Part shown: piece by piece, positions 3,372 through 55,223 of the stretch
Layout: every line of letters starts with the position of its first letter
Position numbering within the stretch: the stretch's first letter is position 1
Assembly (NCBI GenBank): GCA_043755535.1
Contig: JAYUSS010000044.1
Span: 1-57,874 of the forward strand
DNA length: 57,874 nucleotides
Direction: 5' to 3'
Origin: Candidatus Peregrinibacteria bacterium
GTDB taxonomy: Bacteria; Patescibacteriota; Gracilibacteria; Peribacterales; Peribacteraceae
Notes under the pieces: model-generated
What the model was told of the DNA's origin: nothing
Databases searched by the model: none
The model's input: only the letters and a program-made list of their open reading frames with translations
Position numbers and translations under genes: made by a program

Positions 3372-3482
3372 GGACTTAGAGGATGTAGAAGACTTAGAAG
3401 AAGTAGAGGAGTCGATAGACACCTTTTTGGTGCTGCTCGTTCTTCTATTTCCTCTTGTTCCTCTATATCCTCTATATCCTCC
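3372..3482. repeat. word-repeat hairpin (TAGAGGA/TAGAAGA words)
   Basis: Left arm GGACTTAGAGGATGTAGAAGACTTAGAAGAAGTAGAGGA; right arm is an imperfect complement, TTCTATTTCCTCTTGTTCCTCTATATCCTCTATATCCTCC. It fills the smpB-recR gap, and its right arm ends 2 nt before the recR ATG. Confidence 0.8.
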
Positions 3483-3484
3483 GT

Positions 3485-4111
3485 ATGCCTCTCCTCCCCC
3501 CGCACATCACCAAAGCCATCGAGGAGTTCAGCAAGCTCCCCGGTATCGGGCCTAAATCTGCCGAACGGCTGGTGTTTCATTTACTGCGCAGCGGACGGGC
3601 TAGTCCAGAAGGCCTTGGCCAAGCATTGCTCGACCTTAAAACAGAGCTTCGCTATTGCCGTGAATGCCAGATGGTGACGACAACGGAGCGCTGCGATATC
3701 TGCATGAACCCCTCGCGTGATGCATCGATGGTGCTTGTGGTCGAAGAGCCGCTGGAAGTAATAGCGTTTGAAAAGACATCCTATAAAGGTCGTTATCATG
3801 TGCTCCACGGGGTCCTTTCCCCTATCGACGGTATGGGTCCCGAACAGCTCAAAATCCGAGAATTGATTGAACGCTGCAATGCCGGTGGTCCGTCTGAGCA
3901 CGGCTCAGCCGCGACAAGGATTCGTGAAATTATTGTGGCGACGGACCCCGACGTCGAAGGTGAAGCGACAGCCACCTATCTGCGTGAACAGCTTAAGTCC
4001 GTTGTTCCGGTTATTACACGCCTAGCACATGGCCTTCCTATGGGTGCGGATATCGAATTCGCGGATCAGGTTACTTTAAGGGAGGCGTTGGCGGGGAGGA
4101 GGAGTCTGTAA
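3485..4111 (+). CDS. recR: recombination protein RecR
   Basis: LPGIGPKSAERL HhH, Cys4 zinc finger CRECQ...CDIC, Toprim ATDPDVEGEATA. Confidence 0.92.
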   Translation: MPLLPPHITKAIEEFSKLPGIGPKSAERLVFHLLRSGRASPEGLGQALLDLKTELRYCRECQMVTTTERCDICMNPSRDASMVLVVEEPLEVIAFEKTSYKGRYHVLHGVLSPIDGMGPEQLKIRELIERCNAGGPSEHGSAATRIREIIVATDPDVEGEATATYLREQLKSVVPVITRLAHGLPMGADIEFADQVTLREALAGRRSL

Positions 4112-4134
4112 ATTTGGAAAAGTGCCAAAGATAG

Positions 4135-4163
4135 TTGACATTCTGTTAAATAATGATGATACT
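4135..4163 (+). promoter_or_regulatory. sigma70-like promoter TTGACA-N17-GATACT
   Basis: Seen directly; followed by AAGGAG SD at 4216-4221 and a GTG start at 4227. Confidence 0.5.
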
Positions 4164-4226
4164 GTATATCCTACTTAATCCGATAGTAGGTAGTTCACAT
4201 CCACCACTCAGTTTCAAGGAGACATT

Positions 4227-4763
4227 GTGCAGCACAAAATTATTATTGAAGAATTGTGGGGGGAGAATCGATCTTTTCATCTCACGATCCAGATCTGCTC
4301 CATGGAGGGGATTTCCTTTCGGAAATTTTCGAATTGGAACGATCTGCAGAACCCGTTTATGCCGCCTACGGAAGAGACCCCCCAGCAGCCAGTGCCGACT
4401 CAGCAGGAAGCAGCAGGCGAGCTTGGTTACAAGCTTGCTCAGGATGTTCTTGCGATTGAAGGGGTATTGGCAGTGACGCTCGGTCCCTATCAGTTGACGG
4501 TCGAAAAGGGAGTTGGCTTTGAATGGGAGGACCTGAGTCCGGCCATTCGGGAGATCCTGCTTCCCATCTTTCCGCAGAAGGAGGTCGCTGACAAGGTTCA
4601 AGTAAGTGTGCGGCCCTTGGAATCCTGGGAGGACACACCGCAAGGGAAAGCGCAATTGGAGGGAATTCGCCTTCAAGAGCAGCATAACGGCTTCATGAAG
4701 CGTATTGTGGAAGAACAGGAGGGCGGACCTCCTTCAGATGAAGATGAGTCAGGCGATCGCTGA
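4227..4763 (+). CDS. hypothetical protein (178 aa), acidic C-terminus
   Basis: GTG start 5 nt after AAGGAG; followed by an intrinsic terminator. Middle segment LAIEGVLAVTLGPYQLTVEKG faintly resembles an Nfu_N-like fold (weak). Confidence 0.6.
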   Translation: MQHKIIIEELWGENRSFHLTIQICSMEGISFRKFSNWNDLQNPFMPPTEETPQQPVPTQQEAAGELGYKLAQDVLAIEGVLAVTLGPYQLTVEKGVGFEWEDLSPAIREILLPIFPQKEVADKVQVSVRPLESWEDTPQGKAQLEGIRLQEQHNGFMKRIVEEQEGGPPSDEDESGDR

Positions 4764-4777
4764 TTCATCACACATAG

Positions 4778-4816
4778 TCATTCGGACGTATCGGGTTCGT
4801 CCGAGTGATTTTTTTG
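4778..4816 (+). terminator. intrinsic terminator
   Basis: TCATTCGGACG-loop-CGTCCGAGTGA followed by TTTTTTT. Confidence 0.75.
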
Positions 4817-9274: not shown

Positions 9275-9275
9275 C

Positions 9276-9344
9276 AAGATCCAAGATACAAGCACCAAGA
9301 TCCAAACGGTTTGGAATACTTGGAATTTGGACCTTGGATCTTTT
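9276..9344. repeat. word-repeat hairpin (GATCCAAG words), likely terminator of pilC
   Basis: AAGATCCAAGATACAAGCACCAAGATCCAAAC / GTTTGGAATACTTGGAATTTGGACCTTGGATCTTTT. Confidence 0.8.
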
Positions 9345-9428
9345 CGAATCTGAGGTCAAGGCAAAGTAACACTCATTCATCGTGATAGGCAGTTAGAATA
9401 GAGCCCTCACCCCTGACCCCTCTCCCGT

Positions 9429-10652
9429 ATGCGTCGTTTCGGCTTTGCTCTCATTGAAATGATTCTGGTTATCGGAATCATGGGGGTTGTCGGCGGCATG
9501 GCTATCCCTCTCTATCGCGATTATCAGATTCGAAATGACTTGAATCTCGCGACCGAGCAGGTCACGCAGGGTCTTGCCCGTGCACGTCTACTCGCGCAAT
9601 CCGGTCAGGACGATTCAGGGTGGGGGTTCTACGTTCCCGCAGGCGTGCTCTACAAGGGTGACAGTTATATTGGTCGAGATTCCTCCTACGATGAAACGTA
9701 TCCGATGCCGTCAACCATCATGGCGGCCGGTCTTTCTGAAGTGTCCTATGCGCGTCTTGCGGGTACGCCAAGCGGCACAGGCTCTATCACCCTGATTGCT
9801 CTTAACCGCGAGGAGCGCACGATTTATATCGTCGTGGGAGCCGAGTCCATTGCCATCGTCCATGAAAACGATTTGACGATTTGTCACCAGACAGGACAGG
9901 GCTATCACACGCTGACCATGAACGAAGCTGCGTGGCCTGCACATCAGGCTCATGGTGATACGCTTGGTGCATGTCCCGTAACTTCTTCTTTTGCCTCCTC
10001 CGCTATTTCCAGTGTCGCCGCAAGTAGCGCAGTGTCATCGGCTGTTTCCAGCGCAGGAGCCAGCGCAACATGCCAGGATCGCTTCAGCATCGCCGCTGAT
10101 GGCACAATCACAACGACCGGTCCGCTCAGTATCCGGTTCGATTCGCTGGGTGCGAAATTCGGCTACGGTAACGGCAGCACTGCTGTGCCGGTGCAGGTGG
10201 CCTACAAAAAGAAAACGAGTGGCAACTCCTACACGAACTTGTTTAGCGGCAACGCGATCAACGGCAACGGAGGTGCAACGCAGACCGTATCCGGTTTCAA
10301 GAGCGGCGATAACGTAATCGTGCGATTCTGGGCACAGTACAGCCAGAAGGGCTGGTTGTCCTACGATCGAAAAATAGTGTCGAACGATGGTTCGAATGCG
10401 GTGCTTGTGTTGCGTAACGGCGATACGCCTCCCGTGATCTTGGGCTCTAACGGTCAGACGAGTATTTCCACGTTACTTGCTCCTATTGTGTCGAATGGAG
10501 TGATCAGTATCGGGACCTACGACCTTGTGCTCATTGGCGACTTCAACCGGCCGGATTGCAACTCCTGCAGTAATTATTACTGTAGCAACTGTACGGGTGT
10601 CGACTATCAGGACGGAGTGGTGTTGGTAAAATTCTTAACACCGTCGTGTTAG
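9429..10652 (+). CDS. large pseudopilin (prepilin-type N-terminal domain, Ser/Ala linker, Cys-rich C-terminus)
   Basis: MRRFG/FALIEMILVIGIMGVVGG cleavage-methylation motif; SSFASSAISSVAASSAVSSAVSS linker; CNSCSNYYCSNCTG near the end. Confidence 0.8.
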   Translation: MRRFGFALIEMILVIGIMGVVGGMAIPLYRDYQIRNDLNLATEQVTQGLARARLLAQSGQDDSGWGFYVPAGVLYKGDSYIGRDSSYDETYPMPSTIMAAGLSEVSYARLAGTPSGTGSITLIALNREERTIYIVVGAESIAIVHENDLTICHQTGQGYHTLTMNEAAWPAHQAHGDTLGACPVTSSFASSAISSVAASSAVSSAVSSAGASATCQDRFSIAADGTITTTGPLSIRFDSLGAKFGYGNGSTAVPVQVAYKKKTSGNSYTNLFSGNAINGNGGATQTVSGFKSGDNVIVRFWAQYSQKGWLSYDRKIVSNDGSNAVLVLRNGDTPPVILGSNGQTSISTLLAPIVSNGVISIGTYDLVLIGDFNRPDCNSCSNYYCSNCTGVDYQDGVVLVKFLTPSC

Positions 10653-10720
10653 CTTCTTAGCTTCTCAGCTGCATAGCTTCTTAGTTACACCCGCCTGAGA
10701 AGCTAAGCAGCTATGCAGCT
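10651..10720. repeat. word-repeat inverted element (TAGCTTCT words)
   Basis: TAGCTTCTTAGCTTCTCAGCTGCATAGCTTCTTAG ... CTGAGAAGCTAAGCAGCTATGCAGCT. The complementary blocks are in non-nested order. Confidence 0.75.
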
Positions 10721-12235: not shown

Positions 12236-12660
12236 TGCACTCTCTTCATCATCGGCATATGCGCGAGGGGTATGTATTTCTCGTTACCATTCTCATGGTG
12301 GGGAGCATTGCGACGGCTACGGCCGTTTCCCTGATGTTACTTTCGTGGGCTGCAGAGCAAAACGGGTTTTTAGTGCAGCGATCAACCCAAGCGTACGAGT
12401 ATGCCAATACATGTGCCGAGAGGGCGCTTCGTAAACTTCGTATCGACCCCGCTTACGCCGGGGAAGAAACATTTTCGTTTGCGACAGGGAGTTGCAGTAT
12501 TCTTCGCATCGGTGGTGCGGGGAATGAACGTCGGACACTCTGCACATCCGGAGAGGTGGATGATATCAGTCGCCGCTTACAGGTGAATATCGATCGCTTA
12601 TATCCCTCGGTACGCATCAATTCGTGGGCCGAGGTGCTTTCCTCCAATGCATGCCAGTGA
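12232..12660 (+). CDS. PilX-like minor pilin / pseudopilin
   Basis: ATGA overlap with the upstream gene; N-terminal hydrophobic helix GYVFLVTILMVGSIATATAVSLMLL. Confidence 0.65.
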   Translation: MMHSLHHRHMREGYVFLVTILMVGSIATATAVSLMLLSWAAEQNGFLVQRSTQAYEYANTCAERALRKLRIDPAYAGEETFSFATGSCSILRIGGAGNERRTLCTSGEVDDISRRLQVNIDRLYPSVRINSWAEVLSSNACQ

Positions 12661-13289
12661 GTAACAAGCATCTTCATGCCGGCGTATCGTTGATCGAACT
12701 GATGATCTTTCTAGGAGTGTTTGCTATGGTTATTTCTGTTGCACTCCCGCTCTTTTTTTCGGCAACGGAAAACAGGCTCTTGCAGCAGACAATATCCGTC
12801 GTGGAACAAAACGGAACGCAGATGCTCCAGAACACATCCATACACGTGCATGCATCGGAGCGCATTATCTCCCCCGCAGCCGGTCAGACGGGGTCGGTGC
12901 TGGTGCTGCAAACCGGGAATGTCTCCACCGATCCAACGATCATCGGCATCAGCAGCGGATCACTCGTCATCATCAAACATGCGACGAAAGAACCTGTCAG
13001 CAGTCCTCAGGTTGCGATTACGAATCTTGTGTTCAGGAACACGTCGACATCCACTACACGACAGAGTGTGAAAATGTCCTTCGATCTTTCGCGTACCATT
13101 CGCCTGCAGATGCCGCACAGTTATGCGCGACTGTTCGAAACAACATTTTCACTTTTGCCCGATGACGTGACTCATGGCAACTCCTGTAGCTGTCTTGCTC
13201 CCACCTGCGCAGCGGGAGATCAGTATACGTGGAGAGTCTGCGAAAATTCGCTCTGCTACACAGCTACGACGGATCTGGAATGCCCGTAA
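12651..13289 (+). CDS. pseudopilin (prepilin-type N-terminal domain)
   Basis: HAG/VSLIELMIFLGVFAMVISVALPLF; start taken at ATG 12651, overlapping the previous gene by 10 nt. Confidence 0.75.
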   Translation: MPVSNKHLHAGVSLIELMIFLGVFAMVISVALPLFFSATENRLLQQTISVVEQNGTQMLQNTSIHVHASERIISPAAGQTGSVLVLQTGNVSTDPTIIGISSGSLVIIKHATKEPVSSPQVAITNLVFRNTSTSTTRQSVKMSFDLSRTIRLQMPHSYARLFETTFSLLPDDVTHGNSCSCLAPTCAAGDQYTWRVCENSLCYTATTDLECP

Positions 13290-13290: not shown

Positions 13291-13380
13291 AAATTGAAAA
13301 TTGATAATGGATAATTGAAAATAAAAAACATTCTTCACTCGAGAAGTAATTATCAATTTTCAATTATCCATTATCAATTC
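13291..13380. repeat. word-repeat hairpin (AATTGATAAT/AATTGAAAAT words)
   Basis: AATTGAAAATTGATAATGGATAATTGAAAAT ... ATTATCAATTTTCAATTATCCATTATCAATTC. Confidence 0.8.
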
Positions 13381-21484: not shown

Positions 21485-21598
21485 TGGTAAAAGAATGACG
21501 TGATGCTGTGAAGACCAATGGGGCCACGAGACTCTACATTTTTCTGAGCAATTTCGGAAGCTGATTCTTGCATGAATTAGCCATTAATGGGATAATGC

Positions 21599-25610: not shown

Positions 25611-25620
25611 TACGAACAAC

Positions 25621-25676
25621 CTTGCAAGCTGGTCAGCTTGTCAGGTTCCTAACCAGCTAACTAGCTGACCAGCTAA
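25621..25676. repeat. word-repeat hairpin (AGCTGGTC words) between convergent genes
   Basis: CAAGCTGGTCAGCTTGTCAGG ... CCAGCTAACTAGCTGACCAGCT. Confidence 0.75.
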
Positions 25677-25682
25677 AAAGCT

Positions 25683-27941
25683 TTATAGCGGCATTTTGAG
25701 TTGCGTCGGTTTTTCCTCAGTATTCACTGGAATGCCTCCGCACTCTTTCATATACCGCATAATCCCTTTCCCATAATCTTTTTCATGCAGTCGCTTATCG
25801 AGCACCATCACCTCGGCATCCGTTTTCTTGTGGCGGCAGAAACTCCTGAGCAATCGGAATAAGCGAAACTGCAGACGCGGAATGTTATATTCGCTGAATG
25901 CGTTTTTGTAGTGATTGCGACGCAGGCTCAGGACCGGGTGATTCGGATGATCAAACGGAACAGTATCAATGACGAGTCGGTCGACGGTAACTTCCGGGAA
26001 GTCTAACCCCTCGTACATGAACGGCGTGACGATCAGAATTGCGGGGCTCTCAGCGGCGGCAAATTCTGCTTCCATACGCCCCTGTCCCCCGTTCATGCCC
26101 TGGCAGATCAGTGTGACGCCTGCCGCCTCCAATGCGGCTGCGTGTACGGTGTAGGACTGTTCAATCACGCGCTTGCTGCCGGCTAAGATAATGGTTTTCC
26201 CGGCTGGCGGATTTTGGAGCACAGAGAGAAGTCCTCTGTCGGTCGGGAACGCAACGGCGAGAGCGCACGGCGGGAATCCGTCCGGTGCTTCACTCTGCAC
26301 TGCACTCTCGGGTGGAACGATTTCGGGGAAGACATCCCCAGTGCCGGTTGGCACCAGCAGCGTTGTCGGGTGACGATCATACAAAACATCTTTGAGCATC
26401 GTATCGACGCGCTTGGGTGCGGACTGAAGCATCAGCGCACCGTCCATTCTGCGCTCGATCCACACCAAGTGCGTCTCGGGGAGGTTTTCATTCAGAAGCG
26501 CACGCGCCGCTTTCAGTAACTCTTCTGTCTTTGCAGGGAGTGCAGGGATGGCCATCAGCGTATCGATATCGCCGCGTAGTGCACTCGCTTCGGGCTTCCG
26601 TAAATCTGCAGGAGTCAGCATGTATTGGTCTTCGCCTCCGCGGATTTTTTCGCAAAAGAGTGCGAGCAAGTCGGTGATACGCAGTAGTGCAGTATCTCCG
26701 GTAGCTGCAGCACGCAGATAATCGAGTCCCAAGAAATCGCCGAACGCTTTGGTCGCGGTGTCTTCCAGCATCGATGCGTCGTCAATCACCACATGTGCGC
26801 CTTCCAGGTGAGTAGCCATGACCGGATCCGAAAGCAGCTGGAGCAGTTGCCTATGGTCAAGCAGGAAGGCGCGGCTCTTCTGCTTGAACTGATCGGTGTA
26901 GGTAGGTGTTGCGTCGGTACAGGCAATGCGGCCGTTCCAGACATCTTTCTCACCGCCGTGCAGTGCAATGTCGTTCCGTGTTCGCGGGTTCCACCACGCA
27001 AGCTTCAGGCGCAAAAATGCTTCATCCGATGTAAACGTTGTCTGCTTGATGAGGGCATCGGCCGCTTCGGGGTTGAGCAGCAACTGCGGCGGATGCAGCA
27101 CAGTGAGACCTTCGGGGACGGTGAGGCGCTTCAAGGATCCTTCTAAGTTTTTCACCGCGATCCATCGGACAATAGAGTCATCGGCAACTGCCGCCGCAAT
27201 CACACTTTGCAAACACCCCGCACTCAATGTCTCTTCGCGTAGCGCCACTGTCCCGACGGTAGGAGGGTTAATGGTGATGGAGCCTGTTGTGCGCTCTTCA
27301 CTTTTACGCGTACGCATCTGCATCCACGTTGCACCCTTTCCCTTTCCTTCCAATGCATCAAAGAGAATGCGATAGCCTGGGCTCGATGTGCCCATCACTT
27401 CTTTGGCAAGTGTCATCTGCTTCTCATCCAACTCACTGAGTCGTTCCCACACTTTCAGGAATAGTTCCATGGTGGCGGTGACATCTCCCAGAGCACGGTG
27501 CGCAGGTTCGTGTGTGAGGTGCAGGACCTTGCTCATGTACGGGAGCGAGAAGCTCGGGAGTTCGGGGAAGACGAGCGACGCAAGCATCGACGTATCCACC
27601 CATGCGCGTTCTGACAGGTCCAGCCCTTCCCCACGCAGCATCCCGATGTCATATCCAAGGTTCTGTCCTACCAGCAGATCGACACCCTCTAACTTTCCGG
27701 CAATCTCGTCGCGTACCGTTTCGAACGCTGGCTTACCTTCGAGCATCGCAGGGGTTATATGCGTGAGCGTTTGGATCATCGGGGGGATTTCGCCTGGGAT
27801 CGCAAACAGATGCTCGGTTGTGTCGACAATTCCCCCTCCCTCGACTCTCACTGCCGCGTATTCGATCACACGGTGAACTTTGGGCACAAAGCCCGTGGTT
27901 TCGGTATCTAGGACAGCAAAGGAGAATGGGGGGAATTTCAT
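25683..27941 (-). CDS. dinG: DnaQ-type 3'-5' exonuclease fused to DinG-family helicase-like domain
   Basis: Exo motifs AVLDTETTG, GQNLGYDIGML and HRALGDVTAT. C-terminal DinG-like block ILIVTPFMYEGLDFPEVTVDRLVIDTVPF. No Walker A, and the DEAH box reads IDDASML. Confidence 0.82.
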   Translation of the reverse strand: MKFPPFSFAVLDTETTGFVPKVHRVIEYAAVRVEGGGIVDTTEHLFAIPGEIPPMIQTLTHITPAMLEGKPAFETVRDEIAGKLEGVDLLVGQNLGYDIGMLRGEGLDLSERAWVDTSMLASLVFPELPSFSLPYMSKVLHLTHEPAHRALGDVTATMELFLKVWERLSELDEKQMTLAKEVMGTSSPGYRILFDALEGKGKGATWMQMRTRKSEERTTGSITINPPTVGTVALREETLSAGCLQSVIAAAVADDSIVRWIAVKNLEGSLKRLTVPEGLTVLHPPQLLLNPEAADALIKQTTFTSDEAFLRLKLAWWNPRTRNDIALHGGEKDVWNGRIACTDATPTYTDQFKQKSRAFLLDHRQLLQLLSDPVMATHLEGAHVVIDDASMLEDTATKAFGDFLGLDYLRAAATGDTALLRITDLLALFCEKIRGGEDQYMLTPADLRKPEASALRGDIDTLMAIPALPAKTEELLKAARALLNENLPETHLVWIERRMDGALMLQSAPKRVDTMLKDVLYDRHPTTLLVPTGTGDVFPEIVPPESAVQSEAPDGFPPCALAVAFPTDRGLLSVLQNPPAGKTIILAGSKRVIEQSYTVHAAALEAAGVTLICQGMNGGQGRMEAEFAAAESPAILIVTPFMYEGLDFPEVTVDRLVIDTVPFDHPNHPVLSLRRNHYKNAFSEYNIPRLQFRLFRLLRSFCRHKKTDAEVMVLDKRLHEKDYGKGIMRYMKECGGIPVNTEEKPTQLKMPL

Positions 27942-27995
27942 GGGATGAGGATATAGAGGGGATAGAAGAAATAGAAGAGATAGAGGAAATCTGTT
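27942..27995. repeat. one-armed word repeat (ATAGAGGGG ATAGAAGAA ATAGAAGAG ATAGAGGAA)
   Basis: Tandem 9-mers abutting the dinG start. On the gene strand this reads ...CTCTATATCCTCATCCC-ATG. Confidence 0.75.
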
Positions 27996-33244: not shown

Positions 33245-34390
33245 ATGCGTCGTTTGTCACTCATCACCGCTGCACTCGTCTTGCTCCCGCTTGCGGCGCA
33301 GGCAGAAACATTCACCACTGTGCGCGATATCGTGCTGCCGATTTCTATCACTATACCCAAGAATGTCACGGCACGAATCGACACAGAGACGATGCAGGGT
33401 GTGCCGGGGTTCCGCGTCATCAACAGTTCAGCGATCGCTGTCCCCGCGTACATTGTGAATGATCAAGAAGATATCCTCCCCTCGGCACAGATGGTAAATG
33501 CGCCGAACGCAGCTGATACCGTCCCTGCTACAACAGTCGACATGCTGCGCGATAACGACTTGAACTCAGCCTTCCAGCCTTCGTCGGAGCGCACATTTAC
33601 CTTCTTACTTCGCTATAGCACCGACGTCGCTCCTAAGCGTTTGGAGTACACGATGCTCTCGGGCTCCGTTGATTCTGTGCGTGTACGTATCGGTTCATCA
33701 TCTTCCACACTGAAGAATGCCTTTGTAGGAACCCCCCGTGGTAACAGCATCGATCTTTCGGGTGAACGTGCCCGGGTGGTAGAGATCACCTTTACGATGC
33801 ACGAAGGAGTTACGCGTATTGCATCGCTACGCCTTATGCAGCCGCGGTCCTACTTGGTCATGCGTGCTTTGCCACGCGAGAGTTACCGCCTGCTGTATGG
33901 AGCGGGGCAAGAAGTCGTTAACCCGTATGATCGTGAGCTCAACGAGTATCAGGCGATCGAGGCGACGCTTGGAAAACCACGTGCAATCGGAGCCTTGGAT
34001 GGTAGTGATCACGACGGAGTAGACGCAGATAACTGCGACATGTTCTGGAACCCCGCGCAGGAAGATATGGATAAAGATGGCGTAGGTGATGCGTGTGATA
34101 ATTGCGGTGCGTATGCAAACCCTCTCCAGGAAGACAAAGACAATGATGGAGAAGGTGATACCTGTGAAGACAACGATAATGATGGAGCGGTCAATGCAGT
34201 CGACAACTGCCCCGAGCTCTCTAACCGATATCAGGAGGATGAAGATCGTGACGGACAAGGAAACGTCTGCGACAACGTCGATAACCGCTTTACCGCGGGC
34301 AAGCCGTGGCTGCTGTGGGGCGCTCTCGTTGTTATTATCTTGATGCTGGGTGGAGCGGGGGCGATGGTGCTACGACGGACGCGGGAGTAA
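33245..34390 (+). CDS. secreted protein with thrombospondin type-3-like Ca-binding repeats and C-terminal TM anchor
   Basis: Signal peptide LVLLPLAAQA; DxDxDGxxDxxD units (DMDKDGVGDACDNC, DKDNDGEGDTCED, DEDRDGQGNVCDN); C-terminal LLWGALVVIILMLGGAGAMVL. Confidence 0.8.
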   Translation: MRRLSLITAALVLLPLAAQAETFTTVRDIVLPISITIPKNVTARIDTETMQGVPGFRVINSSAIAVPAYIVNDQEDILPSAQMVNAPNAADTVPATTVDMLRDNDLNSAFQPSSERTFTFLLRYSTDVAPKRLEYTMLSGSVDSVRVRIGSSSSTLKNAFVGTPRGNSIDLSGERARVVEITFTMHEGVTRIASLRLMQPRSYLVMRALPRESYRLLYGAGQEVVNPYDRELNEYQAIEATLGKPRAIGALDGSDHDGVDADNCDMFWNPAQEDMDKDGVGDACDNCGAYANPLQEDKDNDGEGDTCEDNDNDGAVNAVDNCPELSNRYQEDEDRDGQGNVCDNVDNRFTAGKPWLLWGALVVIILMLGGAGAMVLRRTRE

Positions 34391-34464
34391 TAGAATAATA
34401 GGAATGAGAATAATAGGACGCGCACGAGACGGTCCTATTATTCTAATACTCTCATTCCTAATCC
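34389..34464. repeat. word-repeat hairpin (GGAATAATAG words) between convergent genes
   Basis: AATAGAATAATAGGAATGAGAATAATAGGA-loop-TCCTATTATTCTAATACTCTCATTCCTAATCC. Confidence 0.8.
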
Positions 34465-35940: not shown

Positions 35941-36112
35941 GAATACGGGAATACTAGAATAATAGGGATTAGAATAATCGGAACGACGGGAATAATAGAG
36001 TAATAGGGACTAGAATAATCGGAACGACGGGAATAATAGAATAATAGGGATTAGAATAATGGGAACGATCGTTCGTCCTATTATTCTATTATTCTAATCC
36101 CTATTATTCCTC
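35941..36112. repeat. compound word-repeat element: three tandem 41-nt left arms plus one right arm
   Basis: Units at 35947-35987, 35988-36028 and 36029-36069 (GGGAATAATAGAATAATAGGGATTAGAATAATCGGAACGAC variants), then GTCCTATTATTCTATTATTCTAATCCCTATTATTCC. Confidence 0.85.
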
Positions 36113-37058: not shown

Positions 37059-37172
37059 ACGCGTAGTATACCCGTTTTTTCTATTTCGGCATTAAAAAAT
37101 GACCCAAGCGTGTATGTCCGCTTGGGCCGGTGTCTTCCACTGTGTCACGAGTGCAATCGGCTGGTCCGGCTG

Positions 37173-37745: not shown

Positions 37746-37872
37746 CGCCCACCTCCTGAGTTCCTTGTGTTCCTCCTCCTGCAACCTTCGCACCAAGCAC
37801 ACCCGCTTGGTTTAATTTCGTGCCACATGAGAGAAAGAGCTACGTAGAGCTTAGACGCAGGAATAAATTATG

Positions 37873-38751
37873 TCAAGCAACATTATTTAATCCTGTCAAG
37901 AACGCTCGTTCATGCCTTCCTCTCATCGTCGGCAGTAACGCAACTGCTCGATGTGCCCACAACTTCCACCCTTTCGGAATTCGGTCGAACGTCGGGTCAA
38001 TCTTCTCCATGGTCCGGAGTGACTTCCCGATCGTGTGTATCCGTTTGAGTGAATCCGCAAGTTCGATGTGGTGATGATGCAGTGCCTTCGCATCGGGTTC
38101 GTAGATCAGTTGTACACCGGCGTCCCGTAACTCCGTCCCCCACAAAATATCTTCCCATCCGTAGAGTGATATGTCTTCACGAAACGGATGCTGCTTCGCG
38201 ATTTCCGTCGGGAGGCTGATGTGGCTCGTATAGGTGAAGCGATGTTGGATGTTTTTTGGGATCGCTTGATGTGCGTACTGCGTAATCATCGGGTAGCCGA
38301 ATTGCCAACCGCTTTTCTCTAGCCAGCGCATTACAGGAGTGATGTTGCAGGCGGGGTTCCAGGTGGTGAAGCCGAGCGCGGCCCTCCCCCTTCCCCCAGC
38401 CCCTTCCCCCGCGAGGGGCAGGGGAGCATGAATGGAGAGATGCTTTTCGCATGCATCAGGTGCAAAAAAAATATCATCTTGGCCGAATAAGATGATAGGA
38501 GCTATCGCTTTCTCCACTCCTCTGTTTCGCGCAACTCCCTGTTGGCTTTTGGGGATGGAGAAGTATTGGGTATTGGGTATTGGGTATTGGGTATGGGCAA
38601 AGAGTTCATCAGTGTCAGCATCCGGTCCGTCGCTGACGACGATCACTTCCAACTGATCCACGATTGTCTGCTTCGCGATATGCCCCAGACACTTCTTCAA
38701 AATGTCCGGGCGCTTATGGGTGGGGATGACGATGGAAAGAGACGGGTTCAT
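37873..38751 (-). CDS. family 2 glycosyltransferase
   Basis: LSIVIPTHKRPDILKKCL...EVIVVSDGPD, QQGVARNRG and FGQDDIF motifs. Carries two internal repeat insertions (see findings). Confidence 0.85.
   Translation of the reverse strand: MNPSLSIVIPTHKRPDILKKCLGHIAKQTIVDQLEVIVVSDGPDADTDELFAHTQYPIPNTQYFSIPKSQQGVARNRGVEKAIAPIILFGQDDIFFAPDACEKHLSIHAPLPLAGEGAGGRGRAALGFTTWNPACNITPVMRWLEKSGWQFGYPMITQYAHQAIPKNIQHRFTYTSHISLPTEIAKQHPFREDISLYGWEDILWGTELRDAGVQLIYEPDAKALHHHHIELADSLKRIHTIGKSLRTMEKIDPTFDRIPKGWKLWAHRAVALLPTMRGRHERAFLTGLNNVA
38381..38426. repeat. GC-rich palindromic element inside the glycosyltransferase CDS
   Basis: GCCCTCCCCCTTCCCCCAGCCCCTTCCCCCGCGAGGGGCAGGGGAG is the reverse complement of the element at 39222-39262; translated as PLPLAGEGAGGRGRA. 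Confidence 0.85.
38564..38598. repeat. heptanucleotide tandem repeat (TATTGGG x4 plus one imperfect) inside the glycosyltransferase CDS
   Basis: TATTGGGTATTGGGTATTGGGTATTGGGTATGGGC; encodes TQYPIPNTQY on the gene strand. Confidence 0.9.
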
Positions 38752-38756
38752 CGAGT

Positions 38757-38846
38757 GAGAGTAATAGAATACTGGAATAATAGAGTAATAGGACGGCGGA
38801 AGAACTCCTTTCCTATTATTCTAGTATTCTAATCCCTATTATTCCC
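38757..38846. repeat. word-repeat hairpin (GGAATAATAG words) in a divergent promoter region
   Basis: GTAATAGAATACTGGAATAATAGAGTAATAGGA-loop-TCCTATTATTCTAGTATTCTAATCCCTATTATTCC; each arm ends within about 10 nt of a start codon. Confidence 0.8.
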
Positions 38847-38851
38847 TTCTC

Positions 38852-39589: not shown

Positions 39590-39608
39590 AGATGCTATTC
39601 GAAATTGT

Positions 39609-40583
39609 TCACTTCTTCTTTAAAAGATTCCAAAGAGCATTAAGTACGCCCTTTTTTCCGCCAGCATGTTCAGTTTGATCCTTTGTAACTGGGGTATGCG
39701 TTCCATTATCCACTCCTTTCTTTTCGCGTTCCAGTGTTCCCCTATAAGGAGATGTATCGACGAGAGCATAGGCCTCACCTGTGTTTTGATCGATCATTCG
39801 TCTACAGTCGGTAGCAGTAAAAAAACCACCGTTTCCGCTTTCTAGTAAATCAATCGTCCTTCTTAAATTTTCCACCGGTCCTGCGATATCCAACCGCTCG
39901 TCTCGCTGACCGGCAAATTTGTCAGCTTGTACAACAACATTATAGATTTTTCTCATAGCAGGGACTTTAGGCTGTAATTGTTCCAAGCGCTTTTTCTGCG
40001 CGAGTTTACATGTCGCAACGAGTAGTTGAGAGAATGTTTTAAGGTCTGCGGCAGGTTCCGTCAGATCAGCGGCATGTGACTTTAGACTTTGCGTTACCTT
40101 CGTTAATCTTGCAGTATTTTGGAATCGACTCACCAAGTCTCTCCTTTCTCTGGTGTTATCATTTTCTTGAACTAAATTGGCCATTGAGTCTGCCAACGCT
40201 GTATCAATTTCACTGGAAGAGGGAATCTTGTCCAAATCAACTTCCTTGGTAACACGCCCAATGAGACCTGTAAGCCTCTCTTTTTCATGCCAAAAGCTTT
40301 CATCTGTCTCTTGTTCGATTTGCTCAAAAGCAGCTATGGATCGTTTCAATCCTTGTATTACTATATCTTTCCACGCAGATAGATCTTCAAATATCACTGG
40401 CGCTTCTTTGTACCTTATAGAAATACTCTCACCCTTCATCAGTTCGCGGTAGCTTGGCAGGTCATCGAATAATCCAAAAAGTTGATCTTTTCTTTGGTAT
40501 AATGCGTCGCACTGGCGTGCATATCGAAGATGTAATGGCTCTATCGGCTCCGCAGGTGAAGGAAGGGGAGAATTATTTTGCAT
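39609..40583 (-). CDS. hypothetical protein (324 aa), AT-rich, helical
   Basis: Start moved to ATG 40583 because a TATAAT box overlaps the upstream ATGs; no recognised domain. Confidence 0.55.
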   Translation of the reverse strand: MQNNSPLPSPAEPIEPLHLRYARQCDALYQRKDQLFGLFDDLPSYRELMKGESISIRYKEAPVIFEDLSAWKDIVIQGLKRSIAAFEQIEQETDESFWHEKERLTGLIGRVTKEVDLDKIPSSSEIDTALADSMANLVQENDNTRERRDLVSRFQNTARLTKVTQSLKSHAADLTEPAADLKTFSQLLVATCKLAQKKRLEQLQPKVPAMRKIYNVVVQADKFAGQRDERLDIAGPVENLRRTIDLLESGNGGFFTATDCRRMIDQNTGEAYALVDTSPYRGTLEREKKGVDNGTHTPVTKDQTEHAGGKKGVLNALWNLLKKK

Positions 40584-52046: not shown

Positions 52047-53009
52047 ATGGCGAGCGCCCCCCAAATCATCGGCCACAAAAAGCAGCTGCTCCAATTGGCG
52101 CAGGATTTAGAGAGCGGCAATCTGTCGCATGCGTACTTGTTCACCGGGCCTGCACATATCGGTAAAACTGCCGTTGCACGCTGGTTCGCTAGGCAAATTC
52201 TGTGTGGTGATGCCCCCATCGAAACGGCAGACCTCACCGCGACGCAAATCGACCGGCTCATTCACCCGGATTTCTTGATGCTCGATCAACTCTGGATGGA
52301 AGAAAAAATGGAAGACTGGGACATCATCGCAAAATCGTCAAATATTCCGCAGCAGCACCGCAGCAAGAAGCCCGCGATGAAAACGGATACCATCGCCATC
52401 GATGACGTCCGGGAAATTCAACAGAGGCTCTACGAGACGGGCGATCTTGCCCACCGCGTCTGTCTCATTCGTGGCATCGAACGCATGCAGGATGCGGCAG
52501 CAAATGCGTTCTTAAAGATTTTAGAAGAGCCGCCACCCGGGCGCATCTTCGTACTCACTGCCGATAATCCTTCCACAGTTCTTTCGACCATCTTATCGCG
52601 CTCCAGAGTACTTCGGTTCGAGCGGACCGGTGACCGCGATATATTGCAGATGCTTTCTGATATGGACAGCCACGACGCATCATTTATTGCACACGTTGCA
52701 GAAGGCGCCCCGGGGTTTGCCAAGCGCCTGCAGGTTGACCCGGATATGCTGCGTGCTGAACGCCTCATGCACACACAAGCGATCGCATTCTGGGAAGCGA
52801 AGGTGCTTCATGAAAAACTCTCGTATCTTAAGCCGCTTGGGGAACGTGGTGGGGAATCCGACAGGTTTTTGTACCACTTGGCACTTGCCCTACGTGCAAA
52901 ACCGAATGCTGTGCACGGCCAGGAGAGGGCACTACAAAAACTTGTTTCATCCCTCGATACCAATGCCCAAAGAGGGTTGCAGGTGCAGGATTTTGCGATG
53001 ACCATATAA
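52047..53009 (+). CDS. holB: DNA polymerase III delta' subunit
   Basis: HAYLFTGPAHIGKTAVARWFARQILC, AANAFLKILEEPP, TILSRSRVLRF. Start ATG 52047 lies 8 nt after TATACT (leaderless). Confidence 0.88.
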   Translation: MASAPQIIGHKKQLLQLAQDLESGNLSHAYLFTGPAHIGKTAVARWFARQILCGDAPIETADLTATQIDRLIHPDFLMLDQLWMEEKMEDWDIIAKSSNIPQQHRSKKPAMKTDTIAIDDVREIQQRLYETGDLAHRVCLIRGIERMQDAAANAFLKILEEPPPGRIFVLTADNPSTVLSTILSRSRVLRFERTGDRDILQMLSDMDSHDASFIAHVAEGAPGFAKRLQVDPDMLRAERLMHTQAIAFWEAKVLHEKLSYLKPLGERGGESDRFLYHLALALRAKPNAVHGQERALQKLVSSLDTNAQRGLQVQDFAMTI

Positions 53010-53071
53010 AGATCCAAGGTCCAAATTTCAAGATCCAAACGTTTGGACACTTGGAATTTGGATCTTGGAAT
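53010..53071. repeat. word-repeat hairpin (GATCCAAG words) between convergent holB and murA
   Basis: AAGATCCAAGGTCCAAATTTCAAGATCCAAAC/GTTTGGACACTTGGAATTTGGATCTTGGAATT. Confidence 0.8.
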
Positions 53072-54358
53072 TTACGCAGCCGATGGCTGCTCAATCACCT
53101 GCCGTTCAATCCGTGCCCCTACTGCACGCAGTCTCTCATCAAGCCTCTCATATCCTCGCTCGATGTACTTCACGTCGGTGATCGTCGTCGTCCCTTCGGC
53201 ACAGAGGCCGGCCAGTACCATCGCGGCACCGGCGCGGATGTCGTTACTGGCAACGAGGCGACCCTTGAGTGGAGCGGGTCCAATCACGAGTGCTTCATGT
53301 GAGTTGAGGATCTCTACCTGTGCGCCCAATTTCTCAAGCTCATACAAGTACCCCAGGCGCCCGTCGAACAGCGTTTCAAAGACTCTGCTTACACCCTTAG
53401 CCTGTGTCATAAGCACGCCCATTGGCGCCTGCAAATCGGTCGGGAAGCCAGGGAAAATATTTGTCTGCAACTTGAAGGCACTTAAGAACGACAGTTCTCC
53501 ATCAACAAATAACGTCTTATCTTCGGGAGTGTATTTAAAGATTCCTCCGGCTCGGCGGATGGTGTCCAGAAACATTGTCAAATGGCTGTCATCAACATCT
53601 TTAATACGGAGCTTCCCGCGTGTTACCAGCGCTGCAATCACAAAGCATCCTGCTTCCAAGTAATCGAATGGCACACGGTGCGTGACGGCATGGAGGTTTG
53701 GATTTCCTTCAATGGTCATGGTGTGCGTACCGATGCCGTCGATCGTTGCACCCATCGCAACCGCCATACGGGCACATTCCTGCACATGTGGCTCGGCTGC
53801 TGCAATCTCAATTGTGGTCTTACCGGAAAGCAGTGATGCAGCCCAAAGCGCGTTTTCCGTCGCGGTCACCGAGAACTCGGGGAGAATGACGCGAGATGGT
53901 TTTAACTGTCCTTGTAGGTGCAATACGTCGGATGTGCTCATGTTATTGGCCCCCATCTGTTCTAGCGCAAGAATATGCGCTTCTACCGTGCGCCCCTTTC
54001 CAAGCACACAACCACCGGGATAACTCATTTCCACGACCCCGAAGCGTGCAAGCAATGGCCCAAGCAGCACAATGCAACCGCGGAGCTTACTGACAAGTTC
54101 GTGTGGAATCGGTTTGTTCTGGAGATTAGTTGTGTTGATGCGCACCGTGCCGTCGACAAATGATGTCTGTGCTCCCAAGAATTCAAGAATAGAGAGCATG
54201 ATCTCGACATCGCGTAGCCTCGGGACGTTGGTCAGAACAGTCTCCCCAGAAACAAGTACAGAGCCGGCAATCATCGGCAATGCGGCGTTTTTAGAGCCGC
54301 TGACGGTGATTTCCCCTTGGAGCGGAACTCCTCCGGTAATTTGATAGCGAATGTCCAT
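53072..54358 (-). CDS. murA: UDP-N-acetylglucosamine 1-carboxyvinyltransferase
   Basis: ITGGVPLQGEITVSGSKNAALPMIAGSVL, PGGCVLG (catalytic Cys), FPGFPTDLQ. Start ATG 54358 is preceded by TATACT-N8. Confidence 0.95.
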   Translation of the reverse strand: MDIRYQITGGVPLQGEITVSGSKNAALPMIAGSVLVSGETVLTNVPRLRDVEIMLSILEFLGAQTSFVDGTVRINTTNLQNKPIPHELVSKLRGCIVLLGPLLARFGVVEMSYPGGCVLGKGRTVEAHILALEQMGANNMSTSDVLHLQGQLKPSRVILPEFSVTATENALWAASLLSGKTTIEIAAAEPHVQECARMAVAMGATIDGIGTHTMTIEGNPNLHAVTHRVPFDYLEAGCFVIAALVTRGKLRIKDVDDSHLTMFLDTIRRAGGIFKYTPEDKTLFVDGELSFLSAFKLQTNIFPGFPTDLQAPMGVLMTQAKGVSRVFETLFDGRLGYLYELEKLGAQVEILNSHEALVIGPAPLKGRLVASNDIRAGAAMVLAGLCAEGTTTITDVKYIERGYERLDERLRAVGARIERQVIEQPSAA

Positions 54359-54446
54359 AGGAGGGAAGTATAGAGAAAAAATATGTAGCAAACTGTCAAA
54401 ATACAGTGGTTTTTGTCCTTTATGGGAGAAAAAGACCCAGACTTCT

Positions 54447-54543
54447 AAGATCCAAGATCCAAAAAACAAGATCCAAAACGGGTAATAATTGAATGCACGT
54501 AACGTCAGACTTTTGGATCTTGGAATTTGGACCTTGGATCTTT
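54447..54543. repeat. word-repeat hairpin (GATCCAAG words) in a divergent intergenic region
   Basis: AAGATCCAAGATCCAAAAAACAAGATCCAAAAC-loop-CTTTTGGATCTTGGAATTTGGACCTTGGATCTTT. Confidence 0.8.
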
Positions 54544-54589
54544 ATCATGATTCTGGCCAAAAGATCATTTTTTCTTTACCATCACAGTA

Positions 54590-55117
54590 ATGTTAACCTT
54601 CACCCCCCTCGCCGGTTCTTCTATTCGCATTGTTGGCGGACAGCTGCCTATTGTGTCGTTCCCGGCGGAGGTAGTAGCGGGGGCAATTAACTTACTCCCA
54701 AGCCCCCAAGAACACCCCAGCCGTGAGACGATCTCGTGGCCCGGTGAGTATGACGTTGCCGGTATCACCATTCGCGGTGTCGGCCATGCGGAGGGACAGA
54801 AAGTATCCTATGTTGTCGAAGTTGATAGCGTACGTATCGCCTTCCCGGCTACTCCATTAGATGTGTGGGAAGAATCCGATATTGAGCATTTGGGCGAAGT
54901 ACATGTGCTGGTGCTGCCGACTGATGACGCAAAGATTTGCCAAAAACTACTCGACGACGTGGACCCTCGTGTCCTGATTATTGTCCCCGGTGCCGATGGC
55001 AACCTGAACGTTGATGTGCTCAAGGCTTGTGGCGCAATCGATAAGGAGCGAGTTTCTGAGTACAAGCTGAAGGGTGCGTTGCCACAGGATGGGCGGGAGG
55101 TGGTAGTGTTTGCGTAA
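54590..55117 (+). CDS. hypothetical protein (175 aa), possibly a degenerate MBL-fold protein
   Basis: Strand-rich pattern ITIRGVGHAEG...VHVLVLPTDD...RVLIIVPG resembles small UPF0173-type MBL proteins, but HxHxDH is absent. Confidence 0.55.
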   Translation: MLTFTPLAGSSIRIVGGQLPIVSFPAEVVAGAINLLPSPQEHPSRETISWPGEYDVAGITIRGVGHAEGQKVSYVVEVDSVRIAFPATPLDVWEESDIEHLGEVHVLVLPTDDAKICQKLLDDVDPRVLIIVPGADGNLNVDVLKACGAIDKERVSEYKLKGALPQDGREVVVFA

Positions 55118-55182
55118 TTCCTAATTCTCAATTAAGAATTGACCAGACGTCGTCCATCTCGGATGGACTATGCCCGGCAAGT

Positions 55183-55223
55183 AATTGATAATGAAAACAG
55201 AAATTTTCAATTATCAATTTTTC
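55183..55223 (+). terminator. word-repeat hairpin (AATTGATAAT words) with T-run
   Basis: AATTGATAATGAAAA-CAG-AAATTTTCAATTATCAATT followed by TTTT. Confidence 0.6.

What the first reader, a model, noticed from the sequence alone, without database searches (positions are those of the whole stretch)
3372..55223. Intergenic hairpins built from degenerate 7-10 nt words; some arms abut leaderless starts
At least a dozen intergenic regions consist of tandem degenerate words followed by the imperfect reverse complement of the same words. Each word family recurs at separate loci. The TAGAGGA/TAGAAGA family is at 3372-3482 and 27942-27995. The GATCCAAG family is at 9276-9344, 53010-53071 and 54447-54543. 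The AATTGATAAT family is at 13291-13380 and 55183-55223. The GGAATAATAG family is at 34389-34464, 35941-36112 and 38757-38846. The TAGCTTCT family is at 10651-10720. The AGCTGGTC family is at 25621-25676. Many sit where terminators are expected, after pilC or between convergent genes. Others lie in divergent promoter regions. In several cases the pyrimidine-rich arm ends in a TATA-containing word 6-9 nt before a start codon. For recR the sequence is CTCTATATCCTCCGT-ATG. For dinG it is CTATATCCTCATCCC-ATG. For tsaB it is TATTATTCCCTTCTC-ATG. For the GT2 gene it is TATTACTCTCACTCG-ATG. These mirror the TATACT-N8-ATG layout of holB and murA. I infer that these are compact terminator-plus-promoter modules that spread and diverge by slippage. 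I do not recognise this as a described repeat class.
Basis: partly seen in the sequence, partly recalled or inferred. Interest (0 to 1): 0.6.

Follow-up and report, generated by a model that had tools for sequence, protein, structure and literature searches.

The report
Tandem-word hairpins between Peribacteria genes
The gaps between genes of this ultra-small bacterium hold fast-changing hairpins built from repeated 7-9-base words, which look like gene-less copies of a selfish cassette that carries a small four-helix-bundle gene, and whose gene-facing ends often supply the promoter box of the next gene.

Summary
Eleven of the twelve listed loci are hairpins whose arms are tandem degenerate 7-, 8- or 9-nt words; 27942-27995 is a single arm. 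Genome-wide there are 79 such hairpins, against 1 in a simulated control. Polarity is fixed: the G-richer word strand is always the 5' arm, follows stop codons and faces away from starts.

The genome shows a leaderless-type signal, and arrays end 5-8 nt before start codons. The terminator half is not supported.

The class is not undescribed. Xanthomonas heptamer repeats with convergent inverted pairs and the same strand rule are published (PMC4692102). This scan has also noted such hairpins before on other DNA.

The main result tests a lead from those earlier notes. All four strong PF05635 genes (23S-rRNA-intervening-sequence protein) in this genome sit between arms of the same word families. 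So do 23 of 30 such genes in the family and 15 of 29 across the phylum. Hairpin density tracks PF05635 copy number in 12 genomes (rho 0.97).

Best reading: these are gene-less members of IVS-type hairpin elements, evolving in concert and partly co-opted as -10 boxes. No RNA data exist and mobility is not shown.

The parts
3370..3481 (.). Hairpin of 9-nt words filling the gap between the SmpB stop (3369-3371) and the RecR start (ATG 3485)
   Evidence: I1; -58.8 kcal/mol
9275..9344 (.). Hairpin of 7-nt words starting right after the PilC (T2SSF) stop; absent at the orthologous place of G001
   Evidence: (I11)
10649..10720 (.). Hairpin of 8-nt words; its first word holds the stop codon of gene 9429-10652. 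G001 has a hairpin of other words here
   Evidence: (I8, I13)
13291..13380 (.). Hairpin of 7-nt words after gene 12657-13289 (arms 24/24 complementary), kept with the same words but decaying in G001
   Evidence: (I4)
25618..25683 (.). Hairpin of 8-nt words filling a convergent gap (stop 25610 / stop 25683)
   Evidence: (I9)
27942..27995 (-). Single array of 9-nt words (no partner arm), pyrimidine-rich on the gene strand, ending 5 nt before the DinG-like start (27941)
34385..34464 (.). Hairpin of 8-nt words filling the convergent gap from stop to stop (34390 / NusA stop 34465); its first word holds the stop codon
   Evidence: (I16)
35941..36112 (.). Hairpin of the same 8-nt family with a tripled 41-nt 5' block, next to the DUF1189 gene stop (36117); absent in G001
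   Evidence: (I6, I7, I10)
38563..38594 (-). Heptamer array of the genome's largest family lying in frame inside the GT2 gene. G001 has an array of equal length but another heptamer at the same codons
38757..38846 (.). Hairpin of 8-nt words in the divergent gap GT2 (start 38751) / TsaB-like (start 38852). It is orthologous in G001, with one base changed in every word of both arms
   Evidence: (I12)
53009..53071 (.). Hairpin of 7-nt words filling the convergent gap holB stop (53009) / murA stop (53072)
   Evidence: (I17, I22)
54444..54543 (.). Hairpin of the same 7-nt family in the divergent gap murA (start 54358) / gene 54590. Most of the eight same-genus genomes compared hold a hairpin of different words here
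   Evidence: (I2)
55183..55223 (.). Short hairpin of 7-nt words after gene 54590-55117 and before tRNA-Arg; replaced by a hairpin of other words in G001

Best explanation
The hairpins are gene-less members of families of IVS-type palindromic elements. In the full form, a small four-helix-bundle gene (Pfam PF05635, the protein of 23S rRNA intervening sequences, related to the Avd protein of diversity-generating retroelements) lies in the loop of a hairpin whose two arms are tandem 7-9-nt words.

Shown:
- The arms of the gene-bearing cassettes and of the gene-less hairpins use the same word families in the same polarity.
- Gene-less hairpins are common only in genomes that carry PF05635.
- Words change in concert within a hairpin and across a genome.
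- The element sits tightly between a stop codon and the next start, or between two stops or two starts.

Inferred:
- The families spread or are homogenised by a process that involves the PF05635 protein; the mechanism is unknown.
- The arms stay alike through replication slippage, plus template switching between the two arms in shifted register.
- The elements are tolerated because they keep clear of coding sequence or stay in frame.
- In this Shine-Dalgarno-poor, leaderless-type genome the gene-facing last word has often been recruited, by a change that creates a TA, as the -10 box of the neighbouring gene.
- When transcribed, the long stems are likely substrates of the genome's RNase III, as rRNA intervening sequences are. 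That would cut read-through transcripts rather than terminate them.
For: PF05635 genes in this genome. There are four strong matches. Those on C106, C89 and C97 each lie between a 5' array and its inverted 3' array, of three different word families. The fourth, cut by the start of contig C51, is followed by an inverted array of a 9-nt family.

Shared words. 48 of 79 gene-less hairpins share at least two exact 7-mers with the arms of one of these four cassettes: 52 matches in the same polarity against 1 in the opposite.

Relatives.
- 21 of 26 genomes of the family carry PF05635, with up to 24 copies.
- 23 of 30 loci examined are bracketed by inverted word-periodic arms 17-66 nt from the gene in most cases; 3 more have less periodic inverted arms and 4 have none.
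- Across the phylum, 15 of 29 loci meet the same criteria.

Density against copy number. Hairpins per 100 kb against PF05635 copies in 12 genomes were 0/0, 0/0, 0/0, 0.8/0, 1/2, 2/3, 2.2/2, 5.4/4, 6/10, 6/8, 7/10 and 7.5/24. Spearman rho is 0.97.

Fixed polarity. 302 hairpin pairs that share words have the same polarity, against 2 with the opposite. The 5' arm has G>C in 65 of 79.

Pairing. Of 82 neighbouring array pairs in one spacer, the 6-mer rule called 53 inverted same-family, 2 direct and 27 'different'. By eye, about 15 of the 27 are degenerate inverted pairs and about 10 are truly different.

Concerted change.
- The hairpin at 38757-38846 differs from its G001 orthologue by one base in every word of both arms.
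- Genome-wide, that word variant counts 90 against 11 here and 4 against 16 in 454 kb of G001.
- The same intergenic site holds hairpins of different words in most of the eight same-genus genomes compared.

Promoter co-option.

Other support. RNase III is present. The Coxiella IVS is a selfish element with a 28-bp terminal stem, the S23p ORF in the loop and RNase III excision (PMC4990558, abstract and passages). PF05635 resembles Avd (PMC10053308, passages). The C106 protein matches PDB 2GSC of Xanthomonas campestris at E = 1.2e-24.
Against: - No movement was seen. I found no clean empty site or target duplication. The two presence/absence cases against G001 (9275-9344, 35941-36112) are not alignable base by base at about 80% identity.
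- Loops of gene-less hairpins show no similarity to cassette interiors: 18 short hits with E<0.1, against 4-17 in 20 shuffles. Descent by internal deletion is therefore not shown.
- 31 of 79 hairpins, among them the largest family and two of the window's families, have no gene-bearing copy in this 93%-complete, 153-contig assembly.
- The arms abut the genes and the unique sequence is in the loop. This fits growth in place as well as insertion.
- The correlation with PF05635 is across kin, and the G016 contigs were picked because they hold PF05635 genes.
- The direction could be the reverse: the gene may settle in existing hairpins.
- PF05635 has no known function.
- No RNA data exist for this organism.
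Confidence: 0.55

Rival explanations
1. Functional terminator-plus-promoter modules. The hairpin stops transcription of the upstream gene and its 3' arm is the promoter of the next. The modules spread because they are useful.
For: - Half of the gene-end cases start within 5 nt of the stop (35 of 69; median 5 nt).
- Arrays end 5-8 nt before starts in 37 of 101 cases.
- The -10-like hexamer falls at -15 to -11 in 43.6% of array-preceded genes against 30.3% of the others.
- One family is start-biased (22 against 9) and another stop-biased (24 against 2).
Against: - 16 hairpins lie between two stops and 18 between two starts, so half of each supposed module is idle there.
- There is no T-run (7 of 69) and arm G+C is 0.36.
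- Sense-strand G:T mismatches number 15 against 26 A:C; ordinary hairpins show 19 against 9.
- The same words occur in frame inside genes.
- The idea does not explain why PF05635 genes sit in the loops.
Confidence: 0.15
2. A pure mutational by-product. Replication slippage and fold-back template switching grow word hairpins in place at any spacer, with no element, no spread and no link to a protein.
For: - Arms abut the genes and the loops are unique.
- Copy number and word order differ between the arms.
- Words turn over at a fixed site.
- Heptamer excess is known in many bacteria and was ascribed to polymerase slippage (PMC4692102, discussion).
Against: - The same 7-9-nt words recur at tens of separate loci, with polarity 302 against 2.
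- One word variant shifts genome-wide between sister species.
- Four sampled family members without PF05635 have 0-0.8 hairpins per 100 kb, against 5-7.5 in PF05635-rich ones.
Confidence: 0.15
3. REP/REPIN-like elements moved by a RAYT-type Y1 transposase.
For: The genome has 4 matches to Y1_Tnp (PF01797), two of them full length. REPINs are also intergenic hairpin-forming doublets (recalled).
Against: 0 of 4 Y1 genes have any word array or inverted repeat within 600 nt. Two of them lie at contig ends, as multi-copy insertion sequences do. The arms are tandem words, not single imperfect palindromes.
Confidence: 0.03
4. Arrays of binding sites for regulators or nucleoid proteins, each word family read by its own DNA-binding protein, with no selfish spread.
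For: - Strict polarity with respect to genes.
- Some word families persist across genera.
- Families differ in their start or stop preference.
Against: - Neighbouring genes span all functions.
- Words at one orthologous site are replaced by unrelated words in sister species.
- Arrays occur inside coding sequence.
Confidence: 0.07

Closest known systems
G-rich heptameric simple-sequence repeats of Xanthomonas and Nostoc (Rehm et al. 2015, PMC4692102; abstract, sections 13 and 16 and passages read)
   Same: - Tandem 7-nt units, over-represented between genes.
- 70-75 inverted pairs per Xanthomonas genome, always convergent.
- The G-rich strand lies after stops on the coding strand and before starts on the non-coding strand.
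- Overlap with stop codons.
- Length and sequence vary between sister species while the type (single or paired) is kept.
- Not linked to transposases.
   Different: - Here there are a dozen or more word families of 7, 8 and 9 nt in one genome.
- The words are AT-rich (arm G+C 0.36) and have no G-tracts, so the G-quadruplex reading cannot apply.
- They are not under-represented between divergent genes.
- The paper's main text does not mention PF05635, S23p or XCC0516.
23S rRNA intervening sequences carrying the S23p / PF05635 ORF (Coxiella burnetii IVS, PMC4990558; PF05635 ORFs in rRNA insertions of CPR bacteria, PMC11270868; passages read)
   Same: A hairpin made by terminal inverted repeats with a PF05635 gene in the loop. 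Total size is about 0.45-0.55 kb. The IVS is regarded as selfish and horizontally moved. An RNase III gene is present in the host.
   Different: - The cassettes here lie between protein genes, not in rRNA.
- Their arms are tandem words.
- The window's own hairpins carry no gene.
- Excision by RNase III is untested.
TAACTGA-type heptamer direct repeats of Beggiatoaceae, cyanobacteria and Bacteroidetes (MacGregor 2015, PMC4679880; abstract and passages read)
   Same: Heptamer arrays in one orientation lie within a few nucleotides upstream of start codons, in spacers that lack ribosome-binding sites. A few lie in frame inside genes.
   Different: There is one word only, and almost no inverted pairs (1 of 170 sets). 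The author proposed a translational role.
REPINs / REP elements with RAYT transposases, and MITEs
   Same: Short, intergenic, hairpin-forming, species-specific families present in tens of copies.
   Different: There is no association with the Y1 genes of this genome. There is no conserved core and no target duplication was seen. The arms are tandem words.

Membership tests
Heptamer-type long simple-sequence repeats with inverted pairs (Xanthomonas type) | Tandem units of about 7 nt, over-represented outside genes | tested here: met
   Periods 7, 8 and 9 dominate. 279 of 435 arrays lie outside or only partly inside genes, although 80% of the genome is coding.
Heptamer-type long simple-sequence repeats with inverted pairs (Xanthomonas type) | Paired arrays always convergent; the G-richer strand follows stops and is antisense before starts | tested here: met
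   Polarity is 302 against 2, and the 5' arm has G>C in 65 of 79. Next to starts the count is 64 against 5; next to stops it is 83 against 20.
Heptamer-type long simple-sequence repeats with inverted pairs (Xanthomonas type) | G-tracts able to form G-quadruplexes, with a preference for four units | tested here: not met
   The words listed have no runs of three G, and arm G+C is 0.36.
IVS-type element (23S rRNA intervening sequence with S23p ORF) | Inserted in helix 25 or 45 of 23S rRNA | tested here: not met
   All window hairpins and the four cassettes lie between protein-coding genes. The rRNA genes of this genome were not examined.
IVS-type element (23S rRNA intervening sequence with S23p ORF) | Terminal inverted repeats forming a stem around a PF05635 ORF | tested here: met
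   This holds for 3 of 3 complete cassettes in the genome; the fourth is cut by a contig end. It also holds for 23 of 30 loci in the family and 15 of 29 in the phylum. The window's hairpins have the stem but no ORF.
IVS-type element (23S rRNA intervening sequence with S23p ORF) | Excised from the transcript by RNase III | not testable with these tools
   The rnc gene is present. No RNA run was listed.
REP/REPIN with RAYT | A Y1 (RAYT) gene flanked by the repeats | tested here: not met
   0 of 4 Y1_Tnp matches have arrays or inverted repeats within 600 nt.
MITE | A conserved internal sequence between the terminal inverted repeats, and a target-site duplication | tested here: not met
   Loops are unrelated within families and unrelated to cassette interiors. 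Target duplications could not be judged because the arms abut stop codons and are themselves symmetric.
Intrinsic (Rho-independent) terminator | A G+C-rich stem followed by a U-run | tested here: not met
   A T-run of 4 or more follows in 7 of 69 cases, and arm G+C is 0.36. Ordinary hairpins of this genome also lack T-runs (6 of 59), so this does not exclude a termination mode without a U-run.
Leaderless-type promoter (-10 box ending about 6 nt before the start codon) | A TA-N3-T hexamer at about -12 to -7 and no Shine-Dalgarno signal | tested here: met
   Genome-wide, 110 of 842 ATG-start ORFs have the hexamer at -12, against 11-32 at positions -30 to -16. GGAG occurs at most 8 times at any position. 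In array-preceded genes the hexamer is at -12 in 22.8%, against 12.4% in the others. Transcription starts are not mapped.

The most novel reading that the evidence does not exclude
PF05635 four-helix-bundle (Avd-like, 'S23p') proteins are the trans-acting partners of a widespread, undescribed class of selfish hairpin elements whose arms are tandem short words. The enigmatic heptamer repeats of many bacteria (Xanthomonas, cyanobacteria, CPR) would be the gene-less copies of these elements, and rRNA intervening sequences would be only the special case that landed in rRNA. In leaderless-type CPR genomes these elements would be a steady source of new -10 boxes and gene punctuation.
Probability: 0.3. 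Interest if true: 0.8.

Novelty: new variant of a known kind. Interest (0 to 1): 0.58.

Why it matters
Short tandem heptamer repeats between bacterial genes have been on record for decades without an explanation. PF05635 is a very large protein family: at least 7992 relatives at E <= 1e-8 among the 8000 candidates scored. It has a solved structure but no known role outside diversity-generating retroelements.

This genome ties the two together in a clean form:
- several word families, each with a gene-bearing copy;
- density that follows PF05635 copy number;
- word changes that sweep whole genomes.

It also shows that the architecture does not need G-quadruplex-forming words, which removes the only published functional idea for the paired repeats. 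For genome annotation of CPR bacteria, these arrays mislead start-codon calls and break assemblies.

If the promoter co-option holds, a selfish repeat is shaping the promoters of about 8% of genes (101 of 1261).

Tried and rejected
Expression. No RNA holder was listed for window 30001-40000, so neither starts, ends nor RNase III cuts could be seen.

Polymorphism. Logan contigs of two sediment runs match the window with 0 differences over the hairpins they span. They break at 36081-36106 and between 38412 and 38812, as repeats do, and show no copy-number variants.

G:U test for selection on RNA. The result ran against an RNA role for the word hairpins (15 sense against 26 antisense), but the numbers are small.

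T-run test. It is uninformative, because ordinary hairpins lack T-runs too.

Terminal-word test. The -10-like hexamer is in the last word of 19 of 37 start-facing ends against 9 of 55 stop-facing ends. This is confounded by family, since one family has the hexamer in every word.

Descent by deletion. No signal.

RAYT link. None.

Reverse transcriptases. There are 6 matches in the genome. One lies beside the weak fifth PF05635-like gene, a layout like a diversity-generating retroelement. None lies next to a word hairpin cassette. A role of reverse transcription in spread is pure conjecture.

Protein identity against word family across the phylum. The two closest relatives of the C106 protein (70% and 68% identity) have arms that share 7 and 6 hexamers with the C106 arms in the same polarity, against 2 and 1 in the other. 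Other loci scatter: 8, 6 and 5 shared hexamers at 65%, 51% and 53% identity, and 0-3 elsewhere. This is suggestive only.

Literature searches.
- No paper held all of Patescibacteria, intergenic, tandem repeat and hairpin.
- PF05635 occurs in one paper.
- The IVP terms occur in 9 papers. I opened PMC11270868, whose text has no hit for hairpin or inverted repeat, and PMC11637426, read for the protein name only.

Rehm's S-files list the repeat-associated genes and might show XCC0516. MacGregor's supplementary tables could also bear on the PF05635 link.

The Xanthomonas genome could not be fetched, so I did not test whether XCC0516 lies between heptamer arrays.

Full report
WHAT IS THERE.

The window is a whole 57.9-kb contig (C44) of a 1.47-Mb, 153-contig genome with 50.5% G+C. 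Relatives found with its MurA protein are titled Candidatus Peribacteria or Peribacteraceae, a CPR lineage.

At 11 of the 12 coordinates given, a run of degenerate words of period 7, 8 or 9 is followed after a loop of 10-110 nt by its imperfect inverted copy. The twelfth, 27942-27995, is a lone array.

Several hairpins fill their spacer from codon to codon. 53009-53071 and 34385-34464 run from one stop to the convergent stop. At 10649 and 34385 the first word holds the stop codon.

IS IT MORE THAN CHANCE.

My own inverted-repeat scan required arms of at least 16 nt, at least 75% complementarity and a span of at most 220 nt. It finds 147 loci in the genome, against 23 in one order-3 Markov simulation. 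Of these, 79 of 147 have arms with a self-match of 0.7 or more at a lag of 7, 8 or 9, against 1 of 23 in the simulation. TRF periods peak at 7, 8 and 9.

About a dozen word families recur at separate loci. Logan contigs of two sediment runs reproduce the hairpins they span without a difference.

RULES OF THE ARCHITECTURE.

(a) Polarity. Among hairpin pairs that share at least three 7-mers, 302 have the same polarity and 2 the opposite. The 5' arm has more G than C in 65 of 79; ordinary hairpins show 23 against 33.

(b) Pairing. Of 82 neighbouring array pairs in one spacer, a 6-mer rule called 53 inverted same-family, 2 direct and 27 different. By eye, about 15 of the 27 are degenerate inverted pairs and about 10 are truly different. 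The two arms are therefore a unit, not two independent arrays.

(c) Relation to genes. For 12 families, arrays next to a start are in the 3'-arm orientation 64 times and in the other 5 times. Arrays next to a stop are in the 5'-arm orientation 83 times against 20. Arms of one hairpin are counted apart in these figures.

(d) Context. 34 hairpins lie in tandem spacers, 18 in divergent and 16 in convergent ones; 6 are genic and 5 are at contig ends. Spacers in general number 571, 167 and 161. Ordinary hairpins avoid divergent spacers (3 of 45).

(e) The same words also occur in frame inside genes.

PROMOTER SIDE.

The genome has a leaderless-type signal. A TA-N3-T hexamer peaks at -12 (110 of 842 ATG-start ORFs, against 11-32 at positions -30 to -16), G is depleted upstream, and there is no Shine-Dalgarno peak.

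101 of 1261 genes have an array within 40 nt upstream. In 37 of these the array ends 5-8 nt before the start. In several families the last word differs from the inner words by a change that creates a TA at the right place (listing). The hexamer is at -12 in 22.8% of array-preceded genes, against 12.4% of the rest.

This supports the view that the last word often serves as the -10 box. Transcription starts are not mapped.

TERMINATOR SIDE.

- There is no T-run (7 of 69), but ordinary hairpins have none either (6 of 59).
- G:U-compatible mismatches are not enriched on the sense strand (15 against 26); in ordinary hairpins they are (19 against 9).
- The hairpins are not depleted between divergent genes.

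I therefore do not accept termination as their reason for being.

EVOLUTION.

G001, a same-genus genome about 80% identical in DNA, is syntenic with the window. Comparing the window's hairpins with G001:
- Two are absent.
- Three are replaced by hairpins of other words.
- One is kept and is decaying.
- One (38757-38846) is kept, but with the same single base changed in every word of both arms.

That word variant is the majority genome-wide in G001 (16 against 4 in 454 kb) and the minority here (11 against 90).

At the divergent MurA spacer, most of the eight same-genus genomes compared hold a hairpin, each built of different words. Inside the GT2 gene, a heptamer array is replaced in G001 by an array of equal length made of another heptamer.

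So the architecture persists while the words sweep.

THE PF05635 LINK.

My own literature search found the Xanthomonas paper. After that, earlier notes of this scan pointed to small four-helix-bundle genes lying in such hairpins. I tested this here.

In this genome.
- There are five PF05635 matches.
- The three complete strong ones lie between a 5' array and an inverted 3' array of three different families that also have gene-less copies.
- The fourth, at a contig start, is followed by an inverted array of a 9-nt family.
- The fifth is below the Pfam cut-off, has no arrays and lies beside a reverse transcriptase.
- 48 of 79 gene-less hairpins share words with one of the four cassettes.
- The paralogues are only 33-35% identical to each other.
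- Relatives 62-79% identical to the C106 protein are named from other CPR groups. This speaks for old subfamilies or for transfer.

In relatives.
- 21 of 26 family genomes carry the gene.
- 23 of 30 loci are bracketed by inverted word arms.
- In a phylum-wide sample, 36 of 301 genomes have a close relative of the C106 protein, and 15 of 29 loci are bracketed.
- Hairpin density follows PF05635 copy number in 12 genomes (rho 0.97). Four PF05635-free family members have 0, 0, 0 and 0.8 per 100 kb.
- Caveats: these are kin, the samples are about 100 kb each, and the G016 contigs were chosen because they hold PF05635 genes.

COMPARISON WITH WHAT IS KNOWN.

- Rehm et al. (PMC4692102) describe G-rich heptamer repeats in Xanthomonas. 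They report 70-75 convergent inverted pairs, the same strand rule, overlap with stops and turnover between species, and they leave the function open. Their main text does not mention PF05635.
- The best solved relative of the C106 protein is a Xanthomonas campestris protein, 2GSC.
- The Coxiella IVS is a selfish 428-nt element with a 28-bp terminal stem and the S23p ORF, excised by RNase III (PMC4990558).
- PF05635 ORFs occur in rRNA insertions of CPR bacteria (PMC11270868).
- PF05635 resembles Avd (PMC10053308).

The window's hairpins are thus a multi-family, AT-rich, 7-9-nt variant of a published repeat type. They are tied to a published gene-bearing element that had been described only within rRNA. 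In the papers I could search, I found no statement of that tie. This scan has noted it before on other genomes.

VERDICT.

- Most likely these are gene-less members of IVS-type hairpin elements that evolve in concert and are partly co-opted as -10 boxes (confidence about 0.55).
- Mobility, the role of the protein and all RNA-level behaviour remain inferred.

Noticed in passing
window 38563-38594 (- strand, inside GT2 gene 37873-38751): A heptamer array encodes 12 residues within the Pfam GT2 match. The G001 orthologue has an array of the same length built from a different heptamer at the same codons, so word replacement happens inside a conserved coding sequence.
   Followed up: partly
window 39169-39266: A G+C-rich inverted repeat (32-nt arms, 75% complementary) lies inside the TsaB-like gene. 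It is unlike the word hairpins and may belong to the G+C-rich folded repeats that earlier notes on this genome tie to a DUF559 cassette.
   Followed up: no
window 42621-42662 (inside gene 40692-43499): An array of period 7/21 of another word family lies in frame in a 935-aa protein.
   Followed up: no
window 9404-9426: A C-rich 7-nt array ends 2 nt before the start of gene 9429-10652. It lies in the same spacer as the hairpin 9275-9344 but belongs to a different word family.
   Followed up: no
whole genome (G000): The genome has a leaderless-type start context: the -10-like hexamer peaks at -12, G is depleted upstream and there is no Shine-Dalgarno peak. Longest-ORF start calls often run into the arrays; for example RecR is called at 3455 instead of 3485, and MurA at 54469 instead of 54358.
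   Followed up: partly
G000:C20:25296-26668: A reverse transcriptase gene lies back to back with a weak PF05635-like (Avd-like) gene at a contig end, a layout like a diversity-generating retroelement. The 1.47-Mb genome has six RVT_1 matches in all.
   Followed up: no
G000:C106:2420-2800 and its relatives (P0002-P0120): The PF05635 protein of C106 has relatives 62-79% identical in other CPR groups (source names include Nomurabacteria, Wolfebacteria and Lloydbacteria). The paralogues within this genome are only 33-35% identical to it. This hints at transfer of whole cassettes between distant CPR lineages.
   Followed up: partly
G000:C4:19776-19861, C77:14209-14306, C32:20525-20606, C26:2110-2198: Whole hairpins of 9-nt words lie inside predicted genes. 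One arm reads as an acidic Glu/Asp/Ser tract or a Lys/Gln/Thr tract, and the other as a Ser-rich tract.
   Followed up: no
window 21409-22037: tRNA-Thr (21409-21484, - strand) lies next to a class A RNase P RNA (21602-22037, + strand, 130 bits).
   Followed up: no
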